A stretch of DNA of 64,000 nucleotides from Naegleria gruberi (Eukaryota). Below the pieces are notes generated by a model. The model was not told where the DNA came from, made no database searches, and saw only the letters and a list, made by a program, of their open reading frames with translations. Position 1 is the stretch's first letter; each line of letters starts with the position of its first letter. The stretch is taken from NCBI GenBank assembly GCA_000004985.1, contig GG738854.1. One strand, written 5' to 3'. This document shows positions 6,010 to 9,990 of this stretch, piece after piece. Position numbers and translations under genes: made by a program.

Positions 6010-9000
6010 TTATGCAACATAATGTAATATTGAATTATTTTGTTCATCTCTTTTCAAAAAATCTCTTTCAAGTAAAGATTCAATTCTCTTCTTAATTTGT
6101 TTAACATCAGGAGTAAATATTGGAATTAATTGTGAACTAACTTCATTAAATAATGATTGAATATTCATTGTCTTTCTTGTTTTCATAATTCTAACAACAC
6201 ATGCATCTAAAATATGAACTCTATCTGTACTAACACTTGTTTGTGTACCTTGTGTATCTTTTTGTGTTATTCTTGGTAATGGAATTTTAAGTTTAAATGA
6301 TCGAGATGTAAAATTTTCATTCAATGAAAGTGTCATTTCCTTCTGATTAAATATTAAAATTGGAAATTTTGTTGATGATAATGAAATTATTGATTGTTTC
6401 AAATCAATATCTGAATTATTATTCAAATCAACTGTAGTATTACTTCCAAATGAACTTGATCTTTGATTCATTCCATTATTGGTACTATTATTATTATTGC
6501 TACTATTACTACTATTATTCTGATTAATTGTACCATCAAAATTTAAACCAGTTAAATCTTCAATTTGTTTAACAGATAATTGTAATTGATCATTAAAAAG
6601 TAATAAAATTGAAGCTTGTAAAGTAGAAAGTTCAAATAAATGATTACCATTAATATAATGAGCATGAATTTGAGCCATACTCTTTGAATAAACCCATTTT
6701 AAAACTCTTTTACCATTTCTAGAATCATAAAATTGTTTAAATAAATGTTGTGATTCTAAAAATTCCTTTGGAAGTAACATGTGTTCTTTTGCTTTTAAAG
6801 GCCACATTCCCATAGTTAAAACTGTAACATTAACATCATATGAAAGTTGTAATTGATTTGTTGTAATATAATTTTGAAATTCTAATTTCATATCATTGGC
6901 CATTGTTTTATCTGTTAACATTTTCTCTAATTTATAAGTATCAGCAACACCTCTATAATGATATTTTAATTTAGAAATCATCATTCTTTCTTCTAATTCT
7001 TGATAATCAGTTACTAATAATCTTATAGCAAATAATTTACGATGTTCTTCAATAAACATATCTCTATCTGAAAAGAATTGAATAAAATCAACAATACAAT
7101 CTAATTTCTTTTCATCACTCTTCTTTCTTAATACATCATCTGTATAATAGGCAAATAATTGTACAATTCTAATTTCAAATTGACCAAGTGTTATATTCTT
7201 ATTAACAAATTGTTTAAATCCTTCTGACATGGCCTTATGAAATATTACATTTCTTGAAAATGATCCATTTGTTATATTTTTCATCTTTTGATGAAGTTCT
7301 AATAAATCTTGAACATAGGAATCAATTAAAAATCTAACTACTTTACTATATACTTCATTAGATATTATATGAATATTATTATTAGATGTATTATTAGATG
7401 TATTATTATTATTTGATGTATTAGATGTACTACCATTATTATTACCATTATTATTATTATTATTTAAATTATTATCATTAGATTTAATCATTTCAGATGA
7501 AGCATTTTCATACTTGACAAATAATTCATTTCCAACAAAAATTAAATATTGTTTAAATAAATCAGCAATTGGATCTAAACCACCTTCTAATCTATTCATT
7601 AAACGATATAATCTTTTCAAATCATCAAATTTTTCATCTCTAATTAAAATTTTAACACCACTTCCACTCATTTCTAATAAACGTTTTTGCATATTTTTCA
7701 ATAATTCCAAATCACATAATTTCATTAACTTGTTTTGTGAAAAACTAGTTGGAAATATTGCTTGAATTCTAGTTTGTTCTTGTTGAATACATTCTTCAGC
7801 AAATAATAAATATTCTGTTAAATTATACTTTTCAATCCATTCATTAGCAATTTTATGATAAAATTCACTTGTTTCCTTCTCTGCATATTTTTCAAATTCA
7901 TCAACATAGACCTCACTTGTTGAATGTTGTTGTTGTTGTTGTTGTGTAGATGATGATGATAATTGATTTGATGTTGAATCAATAATCATATTATCATTAT
8001 TACTGCTTGTACCACCACTGCTTGTACCAATATTATTACTTTGTGTAGTATTAGTATTAGTAGTATTATTATTATTATTATTAGCATGATGAAGACCACC
8101 TGTATTTAAAGTAATATTTGGATCATCCATTTCAGAAAATAATTGTAAAGTTTGTTTTAATAATTGTCTTTGTGAAATGTAATAAGAATTATCGGAATTA
8201 TAAAATTTACGATCTTGTGTAATTTTATCAAGTAAAATTTGTCTTAATTGAACTTTACAATGATCAAATATACTTGTTTTAAATAAATAATAAGCTTCAT
8301 ATTTTAAAGTTCTTTTAGTATTTGAAGCAACATAAAATTGATCTAAATATTTAAATATATAGGAACAAAATTTTACAAAAATGTCTCTAAAATTAATCCA
8401 AATAAAAACAATTTCATTTAATAAATCTTCTCCATATTTATCTTTTAATTTTGGTAATATTGTTGTTTGTAAATATTTTTTAATATAAATTGAATATAAA
8501 TTATATAATTGTTCTTCATAATAAACTGAATCAGGTAAAATACATAAATTATATATAGTTGTAAATAATAATACATGTTCATCATTCTCCCATGGTTTTA
8601 ATTCATTCAAATTTTGACTTTCTCTTTTACCATTTACAAATGTTTCTAATTTTTTTAAACTTTTATAAATTTCATACCAAGTTTCACGTAATTTTTGACT
8701 TCTTGTTTGATCATTTGTATTATTAGTTGTAGTATTATTAGTATTATTACCATTATTAATAGTGGATGGAGTTGTTGAACTTGTTCCACCACTACTACTA
8801 CTAGTAGCAGTGATAGTATTATTATTATTATTAGAATTATTATTAGAATTATGATTAATTTGATGAGAATTGGTTGGAGTATGATGAAGATGACTATTTG
8901 GAGTTGAAGAATTTGGTTGAATGGGTGGTTTCTTTTGAGGAGTAGAAGGATTTGAATTAATTGATTGATTTCCTAGATTAGTTGGTGGTTGTTGTAAAAA

Positions 9001-9990
9001 GAAAGGAGGTAAATTTGATGAAGAATTTGATCTTAATCTATTTTGTAAAGTATTTTGTAAATTTGGATTTGTAATAGGAATAGGTGGTATTGGTAAATTA
9101 TTAGAAGAAGAATTTGATCTCAATCTTTGATTTGGAATTAAATTACTAGGTGTTGGAATAAATAAATTAGGAGTTATAGTTGGATTAGGATAAGGAATAT
9201 TTCCACTATTAGAAGTATTTGAATTTGATCGATTTCTTTGAGCTGCAGCTGCTGCTTGTAAAAAAGGTGGAGTTGTAAATAAGAAATTATTCATTGATAG
9301 AGGTGGTAAATTTGAAATATTTGGAATTCCATTAATTGTTGGAATAAGTGGAAGATTTGGATGATTCAAGTTTGGTTGTGGATTTAAAGTTGGTTGACTA
9401 GTTGTTGGTAATTGAGTTGAATTATTATTAGGTATTATTGAGGTAGAAGTTATTGGATTGGTCATGTGAAGAAGATTTGGAATTGTTGGATTAATAGTAT
9501 TAATTGGAATATTTGTTGAAGTAGTACCATTAGCATTGATATGATTTGGAATTTGACTTGTTGATTGTTGTTGTTGTTGAGGATTAATTTTAGGCTTTTT
9601 TAATGCTTGTTCAAAATTTTGTTGCTGAAGTCTGATAGAGGAGTTATTTATAGATTGTGAGGGTTGTGCTTGATTATTAATTAATGATGAAGTAATCCCA
9701 GCATTTGATTGAATTCGGTTATGATGACTATTAGATGGTATCGTACTATTAGTATTGTTGTTATTATTGATTGGTATCATCATTGGATTACTGTTGACAG
9801 TTGCTTGATGAGAAGGTTGATGGAAGGCATGTTGTTGGGTCAAAATTTGAGTTGATGTTGAATTTATAGTATTATTACTAGTATTATTTACTGTTCCTAT
9901 AGGAGGTTCATCGGTTTGATGTGATGAATTGGTTGACGATGATGATGTTTGTTGCTGATCCTTTAGATGATCTTCGTAGGTTCTCTTCAT
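6010..9990 (-). CDS. Cullin-family E3 ligase scaffold of 1326 aa. It has a ~430-aa low-complexity N-terminal extension and internal Asn-rich insertions
   Basis: The C-terminus reads ...VVRIMKTRKTMNIQSLFNEVSSQLIPIFTPDVKQIKKRIESLLERDFLKRDEQNNSILHYVA. This is the cullin neddylation/winged-helix tail, with the IMK lysine and a ...YVA end. The central region carries cullin-homology stretches (FAIRLLVTDYQELEERMMISKLK..., LKWVYSKSMAQIHAHY...). The N-terminal 430 aa are an S/T/N/P/Q-rich disordered region. It is a single exon, with the ATG confirmed at 9990..9988. Confidence 0.8.
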   Translation of the reverse strand: MKRTYEDHLKDQQQTSSSSTNSSHQTDEPPIGTVNNTSNNTINSTSTQILTQQHAFHQPSHQATVNSNPMMIPINNNNNTNSTIPSNSHHNRIQSNAGITSSLINNQAQPSQSINNSSIRLQQQNFEQALKKPKINPQQQQQSTSQIPNHINANGTTSTNIPINTINPTIPNLLHMTNPITSTSIIPNNNSTQLPTTSQPTLNPQPNLNHPNLPLIPTINGIPNISNLPPLSMNNFLFTTPPFLQAAAAAQRNRSNSNTSNSGNIPYPNPTITPNLFIPTPSNLIPNQRLRSNSSSNNLPIPPIPITNPNLQNTLQNRLRSNSSSNLPPFFLQQPPTNLGNQSINSNPSTPQKKPPIQPNSSTPNSHLHHTPTNSHQINHNSNNNSNNNNNTITATSSSSGGTSSTTPSTINNGNNTNNTTTNNTNDQTRSQKLRETWYEIYKSLKKLETFVNGKRESQNLNELKPWENDEHVLLFTTIYNLCILPDSVYYEEQLYNLYSIYIKKYLQTTILPKLKDKYGEDLLNEIVFIWINFRDIFVKFCSYIFKYLDQFYVASNTKRTLKYEAYYLFKTSIFDHCKVQLRQILLDKITQDRKFYNSDNSYYISQRQLLKQTLQLFSEMDDPNITLNTGGLHHANNNNNNTTNTNTTQSNNIGTSSGGTSSNNDNMIIDSTSNQLSSSSTQQQQQQHSTSEVYVDEFEKYAEKETSEFYHKIANEWIEKYNLTEYLLFAEECIQQEQTRIQAIFPTSFSQNKLMKLCDLELLKNMQKRLLEMSGSGVKILIRDEKFDDLKRLYRLMNRLEGGLDPIADLFKQYLIFVGNELFVKYENASSEMIKSNDNNLNNNNNNGNNNGSTSNTSNNNNTSNNTSNNNIHIISNEVYSKVVRFLIDSYVQDLLELHQKMKNITNGSFSRNVIFHKAMSEGFKQFVNKNITLGQFEIRIVQLFAYYTDDVLRKKSDEKKLDCIVDFIQFFSDRDMFIEEHRKLFAIRLLVTDYQELEERMMISKLKYHYRGVADTYKLEKMLTDKTMANDMKLEFQNYITTNQLQLSYDVNVTVLTMGMWPLKAKEHMLLPKEFLESQHLFKQFYDSRNGKRVLKWVYSKSMAQIHAHYINGNHLFELSTLQASILLLFNDQLQLSVKQIEDLTGLNFDGTINQNNSSNSSNNNNSTNNGMNQRSSSFGSNTTVDLNNNSDIDLKQSIISLSSTKFPILIFNQKEMTLSLNENFTSRSFKLKIPLPRITQKDTQGTQTSVSTDRVHILDACVVRIMKTRKTMNIQSLFNEVSSQLIPIFTPDVKQIKKRIESLLERDFLKRDEQNNSILHYVA
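7375..7428 (-). repeat. Imperfect tandem 12-mer (attattagatgt)n inside the cullin CDS, encoding a T/S-N-N repeat
   Basis: The sequence attattattagatgt attattagatgt attattattatttgatgt attagatgt was seen directly. It lies in the Asn-rich insertion of the 1326-aa cullin. Confidence 0.6.

What the first reader, a model, noticed from the sequence alone, without database searches (positions are those of the whole stretch)
6010..9990. Cullin with a ~430-aa disordered N-terminal extension carrying three evenly spaced RxRSNS motifs
Canonical cullins begin almost directly with the first cullin-repeat helix. Here the first ~430 aa (coordinates ~8700..9990) are pure S/T/N/P/Q low complexity before the cullin fold starts at ...TRSQKLRETWYEIYKSL.... 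Three near-identical motifs sit inside that region: AAAAAQRNRSNSNTSN (aa ~251-260), NQRLRSNSSSNNLP (aa ~288-300) and NRLRSNSSSNLPP (aa ~318-329), at plus-strand coordinates ~9022..9237. Each fits the basophilic kinase and 14-3-3 consensus R-x-R-x-x-S. An extended, potentially phospho-regulated N-terminal arm on a cullin scaffold is atypical. It could be a regulatory or substrate-adaptor docking module.
Basis: partly seen in the sequence, partly recalled or inferred. Interest (0 to 1): 0.55.

Follow-up and report, generated by a model that had tools for sequence, protein, structure and literature searches.

The report
Naegleria cullin with conserved-motif disordered arm
This Naegleria gruberi gene encodes an unusual cullin (ubiquitin-ligase scaffold) with a roughly 425-residue floppy N-terminal arm that carries a few short motifs conserved across related amoebae, including likely kinase target sites, much like the regulatory arm of human CUL4B.

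Summary
ORF 6010..9990(-) encodes a 1326-aa cullin. Its first ~425 aa are predicted disordered, and three R-x-R-S-N-S motifs sit exactly where reported.

Corrections:
- The organism is Naegleria gruberi, not a dictyostelid.
- The motif spacing is 37 and 29 aa, so it is not even.
- The arm is not pure low complexity.

The cullin belongs to a divergent clade found across Heterolobosea. It scores almost equally against CUL1, CUL4 and CUL3, and it lies directly downstream of the true CUL4 gene in three Naegleria species.

- Motif 1, with an adjacent hydrophobic/proline core (F/I-L-F-T-[TP]-P-P-[FI]-x-Q), is conserved in N. fowleri, in N. lovaniensis and in a more distant 40%-GC metagenomic orthologue.
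- Motif 2 is conserved in all three Naegleria species.
- Motif 3 is specific to N. gruberi.

No ATG exists between codons 233 and 621, so an internal start near the cullin fold is not possible.

The best reading is a disordered arm that carries short linear motifs and is probably phospho-regulated, analogous to the CUL4B N-terminal extension. Phosphorylation and binding partners are untested. Interest is moderate.

The parts
6010..9990 (-). Single-exon ORF of 1326 aa plus stop: a divergent Heterolobosea-clade cullin of Naegleria gruberi.
   Evidence: ORF. Pfam Cullin and Cullin_Nedd8. Collinear single-exon models in N. lovaniensis and N. fowleri. 100% identical to the blocks of the partial N. 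gruberi model P0008.
8707..9990 (-). N-terminal arm, aa 1-428, predicted intrinsically disordered. Rich in N, S, T, P and Q.
   Evidence: Composition. AF2 pLDDT below 50 with no stable secondary structure. Only 17% of residues invariant across three Naegleria species, against 71-76% in the cullin blocks.
9970..9990 (-). Conserved N-terminal tip MKRTYED (consensus M-K-R-[ST]-x-[DE]-[DE]).
   Evidence: MKRSFDE in N. fowleri, MKRSFEQ in N. lovaniensis, MKRSHDD in L003 and MKRTRDD in Acrasis. In-frame stop 3 codons upstream.
9589..9600 (-). Basic patch KKPK (aa 131-134). It may correspond to the KKLK patch of the orthologues and looks like a nuclear localisation signal.
   Evidence: SKKLK in N. 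fowleri and N. lovaniensis, VKKLK in L003, NKKQK in Acrasis. Its position in N. gruberi is shifted, so the correspondence is tentative.
9295..9366 (-). Proline-rich stretch NHPNLPLIPTINGIPNISNLPPLS (aa 209-232), part of the conserved island.
   Evidence: Aligns with LPPNLPNLLPNLMGNxLPPLS in the other Naegleria species and with LPPIVPPMVPGSLG in L003.
9256..9285 (-). Hydrophobic/proline core FLFTTPPFLQ (aa 236-245), containing a conserved T-P. Consensus [FI]-L-F-T-[TP]-P-P-[FI]-x-Q.
   Evidence: FLFTPPPFLQ in N. fowleri and N. lovaniensis, ILFTPPPIQQ in L003. This is the most conserved part of the arm.
9220..9237 (-). Motif 1, RNRSNS (aa 252-257). A basophilic R-x-R-S-x-S site lying 0-6 residues after the core.
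   Evidence: RSRSNS in N. fowleri and N. lovaniensis, RQRSLS in L003. In L003 the chance of an R.RS.S within 10 residues after the core is about 3e-4.
9109..9126 (-). Motif 2, RLRSNS (aa 289-294).
   Evidence: RNRSNS in both other Naegleria species. Not present as such in L003.
9022..9039 (-). Motif 3, RLRSNS (aa 318-323). Specific to N. gruberi and probably a local duplicate of motif 2.
   Evidence: Absent from N. fowleri, N. lovaniensis and L003. The DNA core matches motif 2 at 24 of 27 bases. It is followed by NLPPFFLQQ (8989..9015), which echoes the core.
6013..8706 (-). Cullin fold, aa 429-1326: cullin repeats, alpha/beta domain and the C-terminal winged-helix (WHB) domain.
   Evidence: AF2 pLDDT about 85-96. 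Foldseek top hits are CUL1 with TM 0.79-0.84. Clade profile against the PDB: CUL1 436, CUL4B 413, CUL3 395 bits.
8542..8571 (-). LLFTTIYNLC (aa 474-483), the helix that aligns with CUL1 ELYTHVYNYC at the adaptor-binding end.
   Evidence: HMMER alignment of the clade profile to human CUL1. That this is the Skp1-contacting H2 helix is from my own knowledge and was not tested here.
6181..6183 (-). Lys1270 within VRIMKTRK, the predicted NEDD8 acceptor.
   Evidence: Cullin_Nedd8 domain at aa 1256-1318. VRIMK.RK is nearly invariant in the clade and aligns to IVRIMKMRK of CUL1.
7924..8115 (-). Low-complexity insert 1 (aa 626-689) in a loop of the cullin repeats. Found only in Naegleria.
   Evidence: Absent from Willaertia, Acrasis and Pharyngomonas. 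pLDDT below 50. Trinucleotide arrays.
7372..7479 (-). Low-complexity insert 2 (aa 838-873), Asn-rich. Found only in Naegleria.
   Evidence: An array of about 40 TAT (AAT) trinucleotide units.
6415..6534 (-). Low-complexity insert 3 (aa 1153-1192).
10412..12883 (-). Upstream tandem neighbour on the same strand: the true CUL4 orthologue (823 aa from its ATG).
   Evidence: 643 bits to CUL4B, against 388 to CUL3 and 252 to CUL1. Only 26% identical to the target. The same CUL4-then-long-cullin order is found in N. lovaniensis and N. fowleri.

Best explanation
Shown:
- The ORF is a Naegleria gruberi gene for a neddylatable cullin. It belongs to a divergent clade found throughout Heterolobosea (Pharyngomonas, Acrasis, Willaertia, Naegleria). 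The clade cannot be assigned to CUL1, 2, 3, 4 or 5; it is marginally closest to CUL1.
- In Naegleria and one related uncultured lineage, the short N-terminal tail of this cullin has grown into a disordered arm of 270-430 aa.
- Most of the arm is fast-evolving filler, partly Asn-type trinucleotide expansions typical of an AT-rich genome.
- A fixed series of short linear motifs is preserved in the same order: the tip MKR[ST]x[DE][DE], a basic KK[LP]K patch, a proline-rich LPPx stretch, the core [FI]LFT[TP]PP[FI]xQ, and immediately after it R-x-R-S-x-S. Naegleria has a second R-x-R-S-N-S 26-37 residues further on, and N. gruberi has a third.

Inferred mechanism:
- The arm is a flexible docking arm tethered next to the adaptor-binding end of the scaffold.
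- A basophilic (AGC/CaMK-type) kinase phosphorylates the serines of R-x-R-S-x-S.
- The phosphorylated sites then do one of two things. They may recruit a phospho-reader; the paired sites in Naegleria fit bidentate binding by a 14-3-3 dimer. Or they may switch binding of the adjacent hydrophobic/proline core to a partner such as a substrate receptor.
- Either way, this would gate which receptors or substrates the ligase engages, as the phosphorylated CUL4B N-terminal extension does for LIS1 and WDR1.
For: Gene and fold.

Organism and gene model.

Clade and paralogue:
- Membership.
- PDB scores are nearly equal: CUL1 436, CUL4B 413, CUL4A 401, CUL3 395 bits.
- The neighbouring gene is the real CUL4.

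Arm is translated:
- The ORF is open in four lineages.
- The first residues are conserved.
- There is a stop just upstream of the ATG in N. gruberi, N. lovaniensis and N. fowleri.
- No Met lies between aa 233 and aa 621.

Disorder.

Motifs are not chance: 0 of 20000 shuffles.

Motifs are conserved while the filler is not:
- Invariance is 0.57 in the island and 0.40-0.45 at motifs 1 and 2, against 0.05-0.13 in the flanks.
- The same core plus RQRSLS is found in L003, a 40%-GC contig whose arm is P/S/T/Q-rich rather than N-rich.

The module is unique to this cullin lineage: a profile search of 1.84 billion representative proteins returns only the Naegleria cluster plus two spurious translated repeats.

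Precedents:
- The CUL4B extension is unstructured, phosphorylated, and a second interface for receptors (PMC10476281).
- 14-3-3 sites are typically RXX(pS/pT), made by basophilic kinases, often paired and located in disordered regions. The +2 Pro is missing in more than half (PMC2860806).
Against: - There is no phosphorylation, transcript or interaction data for this protein.
- AF2 shows no docking of the module onto the cullin in cis. That is neutral for binding in trans.
- None of the sites has the +2 Pro of the classic 14-3-3 mode I motif.
- The second site is not kept in L003, so a paired-site requirement is not ancestral.
- The Willaertia, Acrasis, Pharyngomonas and BB2 orthologues have 45-100-aa tails without the module. 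The scaffold therefore works without it. The Willaertia model could be truncated; I could not check this.
- S/N-rich composition makes RSNS-like strings easier to maintain by drift in Naegleria. The L003 orthologue argues against that explanation for motif 1.
Confidence: 0.5

Rival explanations
1. Low-complexity noise: the RxRSNS strings are by-products of S/N-rich, AT-biased filler and have no function.
For: The arm is 20% Asn and 14% Ser. Trinucleotide expansions are present in the gene. Motif 3 is specific to N. gruberi, and its DNA core nearly duplicates that of motif 2.
Against: 0 of 20000 shuffles reach the observed count, with 0.0004 expected. Six of the ten arginines in the arm lie in the motifs. 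Motifs 1 and 2 are conserved where the flanks are 5-13% invariant. Motif 1 and the core persist in a 40%-GC orthologue whose filler has a different composition. The motif region is not inside a strong tandem array.
Confidence: 0.05
2. Gene-model artefact: the arm is not part of the mature cullin. Possible causes are a separate upstream ORF, an unrecognised intron, or translation from an internal Met. The public N. gruberi model does lack it.
For: The deposited N. gruberi protein P0008 is 'partial', starts at aa 455 and omits the arm. No transcript data were available here.
Against: - P0008 also splices out conserved cullin helices (aa 595-726), so that model is the artefact.
- The frame stays open for 428 codons at about 27% GC. 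By my estimate, roughly 8% of random codons at that composition are stops.
- The ORF is collinear in four lineages and starts with a conserved MKR[ST]x[DE].
- There is no ATG between codons 233 and 621. The shortest protein with an intact cullin fold would start at Met233 and would still include the core and all three motifs.
Confidence: 0.05
3. Regulated nuclear targeting: the basic KK[LP]K patch and the arginines of RxRSxS act as a nuclear localisation signal, and phosphorylation next to them tunes import or chromatin binding.
For: Basic patches are a common feature of the N-terminal tails across the clade: KKLK, NKKQK, KKRK in Pharyngomonas, BB2 and P0037. Phosphorylation of the CUL4B extension releases it from mitotic chromatin (PMC10476281).
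Against: R-x-R alone is a weak nuclear localisation signal. The strictly conserved element is the hydrophobic/proline core, which this reading does not explain. No localisation data exist.
Confidence: 0.15
4. Self-degron: the core Phi-L-F-T-P-P is a Cdc4/Fbw7-type phosphodegron, so the arm controls turnover of the cullin itself, with RxRSxS as a modulating neighbour.
For: The optimal degron (CPD) is I/L-I/L/P-pT-P with basic residues disfavoured at +2 to +5 (PMC5216119). N. fowleri, N. lovaniensis and L003 have L at -2, T-P, and no K/R at +2 to +5.
Against: Position -1 is Phe, which is not I/L/P. N. gruberi has FLFTTPP, which shifts the register. No +4 acidic or phospho residue is present. The resemblance comes from pattern-matching only. 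The existence of an Fbw7 orthologue in Naegleria was not checked.
Confidence: 0.1
5. Constitutive docking without phosphorylation: the proline-rich stretch and the hydrophobic core bind a partner domain such as an SH3, WW, EVH1 or adaptor domain. The arginines and serines after the core only add solubility or electrostatic steering.
For: The core and the LPPx stretch are the most conserved parts of the arm. CUL3 and CUL4A also use N-terminal tails to reinforce adaptor binding (from my own knowledge; the PDB title of 8k9i mentions a 'CUL3 NA motif').
Against: The exact R-x-R-S-x-S register is kept in four lineages although the intervening residues vary (N, S, Q, L). That pattern is the signature of a kinase consensus and is not expected from a generic basic patch.
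Confidence: 0.15

Closest known systems
Human CUL4B N-terminal extension (CRL4B)
   Same: An unstructured extension sits ahead of the first cullin repeat. It is rich in phosphorylatable Ser/Thr and lies next to the adaptor-binding end. In CUL4B it is multiply phosphorylated and forms a second, phospho-dependent interface for the receptors LIS1 and WDR1 (PMC10476281).
   Different: - The arm here is two to three times longer (about 425 aa).
- It sits on a cullin that is not CUL4; the real CUL4 is the neighbouring gene.
- The candidate sites are basophilic R-x-R-S-x-S rather than CDK1 S/T-P sites, although the core does hold one conserved T-P.
- No sequence homology to the CUL4B extension was seen, and phosphorylation is untested.
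CUL1 (SCF scaffold)
   Same: Best profile score (436 bits) and best structural match (TM 0.79-0.84). The helix LLFTTIYNLC aligns with ELYTHVYNYC of CUL1. The neddylation motif VRIMKxRK is shared.
   Different: The margin over CUL4 (413) and CUL3 (395) is small, whereas a true orthologue such as the neighbouring CUL4 separates by more than 250 bits. CUL1 has no long N-terminal arm. Skp1 binding was not tested.
Lineage-specific excavate cullins (the 'Cul-kappa' group of trypanosomes)
   Same: These are Discoba cullins that cannot be placed in the pan-eukaryotic clades and may use unusual adaptors (PMC12816148). The Heterolobosea clade found here behaves the same way in score space.
   Different: No phylogeny linking the two was made here. 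The trypanosome paper does not mention Naegleria or N-terminal arms.
Paired 14-3-3 binding sites made by basophilic kinases
   Same: R-S-x-S with Arg at -3 and Ser at -2 of the second serine, and Arg also at -5. There are two sites 26-37 residues apart in a disordered region, matching the general description in PMC2860806.
   Different: There is no +2 proline. Only one site is present in the L003 orthologue. No binding or phosphorylation data exist. The presence of 14-3-3 and AGC kinases in Naegleria was not verified here.

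Membership tests
Cullin family | Cullin-repeat region plus cullin homology domain, recognised by Pfam PF00888. | tested here: met
   E 4.2e-94 and 317 bits against a cut-off of 33. The matches are split by the low-complexity inserts.
Cullin family | C-terminal winged-helix neddylation domain with the acceptor Lys in IVRIMK.RK. 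| tested here: met
   PF10557 at aa 1256-1318, E 6.5e-24. VRIMKTRK lies at aa 1266-1273 and aligns to CUL1.
Cullin family | Elongated all-helical stalk plus alpha/beta globular domain, i.e. the overall fold. | tested here: met
   AF2 model with pLDDT about 85-96 in the folded parts. Foldseek against full-length CUL1/2/3/4/5 gives E down to 1.7e-32 and TM up to 0.84.
Cullin family | Binds an RBX RING protein and is neddylated in vivo. | not testable with these tools
   Needs biochemistry.
CUL4 subfamily | Scores clearly best against CUL4A/B, as an orthologue should. | tested here: not met
   Target alone: CUL4B 169, CUL1 163 bits. Clade profile: CUL1 436, CUL4B 413. The adjacent gene scores 643 to CUL4B against 388 to CUL3 and is the real CUL4.
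CUL1 subfamily | Scores clearly best against CUL1. | tested here: inconclusive
   CUL1 ranks first in the profile search (436 against 413 and 395) and in Foldseek, but by small margins. The next-best non-clade database hits are an Arcella cullin (224 bits), then fungal Cullin-1 at 25-27% identity.
CUL1 subfamily | Skp1-binding surface on helices H2 and H5. | tested here: inconclusive
   The H2-equivalent LLFTTIYNLC resembles ELYTHVYNYC of CUL1. The list of contact residues is from memory, and no complex was modelled.
CUL4B-like regulatory N-terminal extension (functional analogy) | Long unstructured segment N-terminal to cullin repeat 1. | tested here: met
   Aa 1-421 have pLDDT below 50 and no stable secondary structure.
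CUL4B-like regulatory N-terminal extension (functional analogy) | Multisite phosphorylation that creates a second receptor-binding interface. | not testable with these tools
   No phosphoproteome or interactome is available. Only consensus sites are seen.
Basophilic AGC-kinase consensus R-x-R-x-x-S/T | Arg at -5 and -3 relative to the acceptor Ser. | tested here: met
   Three sites in N. gruberi, two each in N. fowleri and N. lovaniensis, one in L003.
14-3-3 mode I site R-S-x-pS-x-P | Arg at -3, Ser at -2, Pro at +2. | tested here: inconclusive
   Arg at -3 and Ser at -2 are present in all sites. The +2 residue is T, S, A or G and never Pro. The +2 Pro is absent from more than half of known sites (PMC2860806).
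Cdc4/Fbw7 phosphodegron | I/L - I/L/P - pT - P, with no K/R at +2 to +5. | tested here: inconclusive
   L at -2, T-P, and no basic residues at +2 to +5 in three of four lineages. Position -1 is Phe. The register differs in N. gruberi.

The most novel reading that the evidence does not exclude
The arm is an independently evolved counterpart of the CUL4B extension on a lineage-specific cullin. In this reading the module [FI]LFT[TP]PP[FI]xQ-RxRSxS is a kinase-switchable second docking site, or a pseudo-substrate, built into the scaffold itself. It decides which receptors or adaptors can occupy the adjacent cullin-repeat-1 surface. Cullin specificity in Naegleria would then be set partly by signalling to the scaffold, not only by the receptors.
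Probability: 0.2. Interest if true: 0.6.

Novelty: new variant of a known kind. Interest (0 to 1): 0.4.

Why it matters
If the arm is a phospho-switch, it would be a second, independent case of a cullin scaffold that is regulated through its own disordered N-terminus. That would suggest the CUL4B solution is a recurrent design. It would also give a compact, testable motif set (the core plus RxRSxS) in a genus that includes the pathogen N. fowleri.

There are practical gains too. The work corrects the public N. gruberi gene model, which is truncated and mis-spliced. It also defines a Heterolobosea-wide cullin clade that standard CUL1-5 naming does not fit.

Tried and rejected
1. Dictyostelid origin is rejected. 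The best hits are Naegleria, and the sequence is identical to the N. gruberi protein P0008 in all shared blocks.
2. A full-length database search was swamped by low-complexity words and returned only 7 hits. I repeated it with the low-complexity segments removed.
3. Exact look-ups of the window protein, P0008 and Willaertia P0010 in the contig index found nothing. I therefore could not check whether the Willaertia model is N-terminally truncated.
4. I searched for the island or module in other proteins. HMMER against 1.84 billion representatives returned only the Naegleria cluster plus two translated tandem-repeat artefacts, P0034 and P0035. The word-index search with the four-lineage module profile returned nothing at all, not even the source proteins. 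That search is uninformative and should not be read as a negative result (a first attempt failed for length).
5. Assignment to CUL4 through tandem duplication is not supported by the scores. An ancient duplication cannot be excluded.
6. AF2 was used to look for docking of the module on the cullin in cis. None was seen, only a low-confidence helix over the poly-Ala stretch at aa 242-252.
7. Literature searches for Naegleria cullins, cullin/14-3-3/Akt links and Naegleria 14-3-3 or AGC kinases gave nothing specific.
9. P0036 as deposited starts at a GTG chosen by a prokaryotic gene caller. I re-read the contig and found the true start 146 codons upstream.

Full report
**What is there.** The ORF listing gives one ORF on the minus strand, 6010..9990, of 1326 aa. 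The ATG at 9990 is the first in-frame ATG after a stop three codons upstream. Pfam finds Cullin (E 4e-94) and Cullin_Nedd8 (E 6.5e-24). A regex over the translation places R.RSNS at aa 252-257, 289-294 and 318-323. The spacing is 37 and 29 residues, so 'evenly spaced' is only approximate.

**More than chance.** The first 428 aa hold only 10 arginines, and six of them are in the three motifs. Shuffling the arm gives a mean of 0.0004 R.RSNS, and 0 of 20000 shuffles reach three. None of the other real ORFs in the window, about 6,500 aa in total, contains an R.RS.S.

**Organism and gene model.**
The closest proteins are from Naegleria fowleri (P0001, 1302 aa) and N. lovaniensis (P0002, 1283 aa).
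- When the low-complexity parts are removed from the query, the top hit is 'predicted protein, partial [Naegleria gruberi]' (P0008, 653 aa). BLASTP shows it is identical to the window protein in every shared block. All differences are gaps. The window is therefore N. gruberi.
- P0008 starts at aa 455. It splices out the low-complexity inserts and also aa 595-726, which includes helices conserved in all orthologues. The public N. gruberi model is therefore defective.
- The N. lovaniensis and N. fowleri annotations call the whole collinear ORF as one exon.

**Is the arm translated?**
- The frame is open for 428 codons in DNA of about 27% GC.
- The orthologous ORFs are open and collinear in N. 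fowleri and N. lovaniensis. In both, a stop lies upstream of the ATG and no in-frame ATG comes before it.
- The very first residues are conserved: MKRTYED, MKRSFDE and MKRSFEQ, and MKRTRDD in Acrasis kona.
- Met codons occur at 1, 70, 71, 176 and 233 and then not until 621. A start at Met233 would still include the core and all three motifs.
- No transcript data were available.

**Disorder.** Two AlphaFold2 runs were made, covering aa 195-1326 with 25 aligned sequences and aa 1-640 with 9.
- Aa 1-421 have pLDDT 23-50 and no secondary structure, apart from a low-confidence helix over the poly-Ala stretch at aa 242-252.
- Confident helices (pLDDT 85-96) begin at about aa 422-424.
- Three internal segments, about aa 629-691, 848-870 and 1154-1192, are also disordered. 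They coincide with low-complexity inserts that only the Naegleria proteins have, and at the DNA level they are largely trinucleotide arrays.
- The module does not dock on the cullin in either model.

**Which cullin?**
- The gene immediately upstream on the same strand (10412..12883) is a clear CUL4 orthologue: 643 bits to CUL4B, 388 to CUL3 and 252 to CUL1. It is only 26% identical to the target.
- The target alone scores 169 to CUL4B, 163 to CUL1 and 134 to CUL3.
- Its closer relatives form a clade with members in Willaertia magna, Acrasis kona, Heterolobosea sp. BB2, Pharyngomonas kirbyi and several metagenomic contigs, at 36-55% identity.
- Outside the clade, identity drops to 29% for an Arcella protein and 25-27% for fungal Cullin-1.
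- A profile of the clade scores 436 to CUL1, 413 to CUL4B, 401 to CUL4A, 395 to CUL3, 346 to CUL2 and 260 to CUL5.
- Foldseek ranks CUL1 first but CUL3, CUL4 and CUL2 follow closely.
- The helix LLFTTIYNLC aligns with ELYTHVYNYC of CUL1. From my own knowledge this is the Skp1-binding helix H2.
- I therefore call it a Heterolobosea-clade cullin that is weakly CUL1-like and not securely assignable. This matches the report that many excavate cullins fall outside the pan-eukaryotic clades (PMC12816148). The Naegleria pangenome paper counts nine cullin-family genes (PMC9928731), so other CUL1-type genes may exist.
- The order DOCK, Q_salvage, CUL4, long cullin is shared by all three Naegleria species.

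**The key test: are the motifs conserved while the filler is not?**
- Across the three Naegleria species, 17% of arm positions are invariant, against 71-76% in the cullin blocks and 3-6% in the internal inserts.
- Within the arm, aa 204-247 are 57% invariant, the motif 1 window 40% and the motif 2 window 45%. The segments between and after them are 5-13% invariant.
- Motif 1 reads RSRSNS in N. fowleri and N. lovaniensis, and motif 2 reads RNRSNS in both.
- Motif 3 has no counterpart in either species. In N. gruberi its DNA core matches that of motif 2 at 24 of 27 bases. It is followed by NLPPFFLQQ, an echo of the core. It is probably a recent local duplication.

**A more distant witness.**
- A cluster mate of the metagenomic orthologue P0009 is P0036, on ENA contig L003. 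That contig has about 40% GC, and the upstream neighbour is a P450, not CUL4.
- P0036 carries ...LPPIVPPMVPGSLGHILFTPPPIQQRQRSLSTGSSS....
- Its deposited start is a GTG chosen by a prokaryotic gene caller. The ORF continues 146 codons upstream to MKRSHDDF, which matches the Naegleria tip.
- The true arm there is 273 aa and rich in P, S, T and Q rather than Asn. It carries the same elements in the same order: tip, KKLK, LPPx stretch, ILFTPPPIQQ, RQRSLS.
- In that arm the chance of any R.RS.S is 0.008, and of one within 10 residues after the core about 3e-4.
- Motif 2 is not kept as such, although a basophilic QRKKSS lies further on.
- Willaertia, Acrasis, Pharyngomonas, BB2 and two further metagenomic orthologues (P0037, P0022) have tails placing the conserved PW motif at residues 45-102, with no module. 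The Willaertia model could be truncated, which I could not check.

**Uniqueness of the module.** A profile of the island, searched with HMMER against 1.84 billion representative proteins, returns only the Naegleria cluster and two hits that are plainly translated tandem repeats. A word-index search with the four-lineage module profile returned nothing, not even the source proteins, so I treat it as uninformative.

**How it most likely works.**

Shown:
- A neddylatable cullin scaffold carries a long disordered N-terminal arm.
- The arm holds an ordered, conserved series of short motifs.
- Motif 1 is the oldest R-x-R-S-x-S site. It always lies 0-6 residues after a hydrophobic/proline core that contains a conserved T-P.

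Inferred:
- R-x-R-x-x-S is the consensus of basophilic AGC-type kinases.
- R-S-x-pS is the core of 14-3-3 mode I sites. The +2 Pro is absent from more than half of known sites, and such sites are often paired in disordered regions (PMC2860806).
- The arm is tethered next to the adaptor-binding repeat.
- The closest working precedent is CUL4B. Its unstructured extension is phosphorylated and provides a second, phospho-dependent interface for LIS1 and WDR1 (PMC10476281).
- I therefore favour a phospho-regulated docking arm. I put confidence at about 0.9 for the anatomy and conservation, about 0.35-0.4 for phospho-regulated docking, and about 0.2 for 14-3-3 specifically.

Rivals:
- Regulated nuclear import through the basic patches.
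- A Cdc4/Fbw7-like self-degron. The consensus I/L-I/L/P-pT-P-<KR>4 (PMC5216119) fits only partly.
- Constitutive proline-motif docking.
- Low-complexity noise, which is rejected for motifs 1 and 2.
- A gene-model artefact, which is unlikely.

**Novelty and score.** Cullins with regulatory N-terminal extensions are known, CUL4B being the example, so this is a new variant of a known kind. What is new is the lineage (a Heterolobosea-specific cullin), the length of the arm, and a defined conserved module of core plus RxRSxS that is found nowhere else. There is no experimental support, so interest is moderate at 0.4.

Noticed in passing
window 27948..64000 and 26251..26300: More than half of the window is N. 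Real sequence ends at 27947, and there is a 50-base N gap at 26251..26300. The window therefore covers the end of a scaffold. GC of the real part is 27%.
   Followed up: yes
window 6010..9990 compared with public protein P0008: The deposited N. gruberi protein ('predicted protein, partial', 653 aa) is a defective model of this gene. It starts at aa 455, and its predicted introns remove the low-complexity inserts and also the conserved helices at aa 595-726.
   Followed up: yes
window 10412..12883 (-): The true CUL4 orthologue lies in tandem directly upstream. It has its own tail of about 100 aa, rich in K, S and T and containing KKRK, ahead of the Pfam Cullin match that starts at residue 111. 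The order DOCK (15357..22193 +), Q_salvage (13301..14425 -), CUL4, long cullin is shared with N. lovaniensis and N. fowleri.
   Followed up: partly
window 9070..9087 (aa 302-307): PPIPIT between motifs 2 and 3 fits the calcineurin-docking pattern P-x-I-x-I-T (pattern recalled from memory). It lies in a segment that N. fowleri and N. lovaniensis lack, so it is probably chance.
   Followed up: no
window 8989..9015 (aa 326-334): NLPPFFLQQ directly after motif 3 resembles NLPP...PPFLQ of the conserved core. This suggests a partial duplication of the module in N. gruberi with the element order reversed.
   Followed up: no
window 901..1560 (+): A 219-aa ORF has an F-box-like domain (E 3e-6) and a GON domain (E 2e-7). 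This is a candidate SCF substrate receptor about 5 kb from the cullin pair. No link to the cullin was examined.
   Followed up: no
L003:1235..4402 (ENA ERZ27315067 k141_1812765): The metagenomic orthologue was called from a GTG start (P0036, 909 aa). The ORF really begins 146 codons upstream at MKRSHDDF, giving about 1055 aa. The organism is an unidentified heterolobosean with about 40% GC, and its upstream neighbour is a cytochrome P450, not CUL4.
   Followed up: partly
P0034 and P0035 (hits): The only non-cullin hits to the island profile are proteins made of near-identical tandem units of roughly 75-85 aa. They look like translated satellite DNA and accumulate score through repetition. They are not homologues.
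   Followed up: yes
window 2995..3921 (+): This ORF matches only the C-terminal half of the ammonium transporter family (profile positions 219-399). The N-terminal half must lie in an upstream exon or frame. An ammonium transporter also lies downstream of the cullin pair in N. lovaniensis.
   Followed up: no
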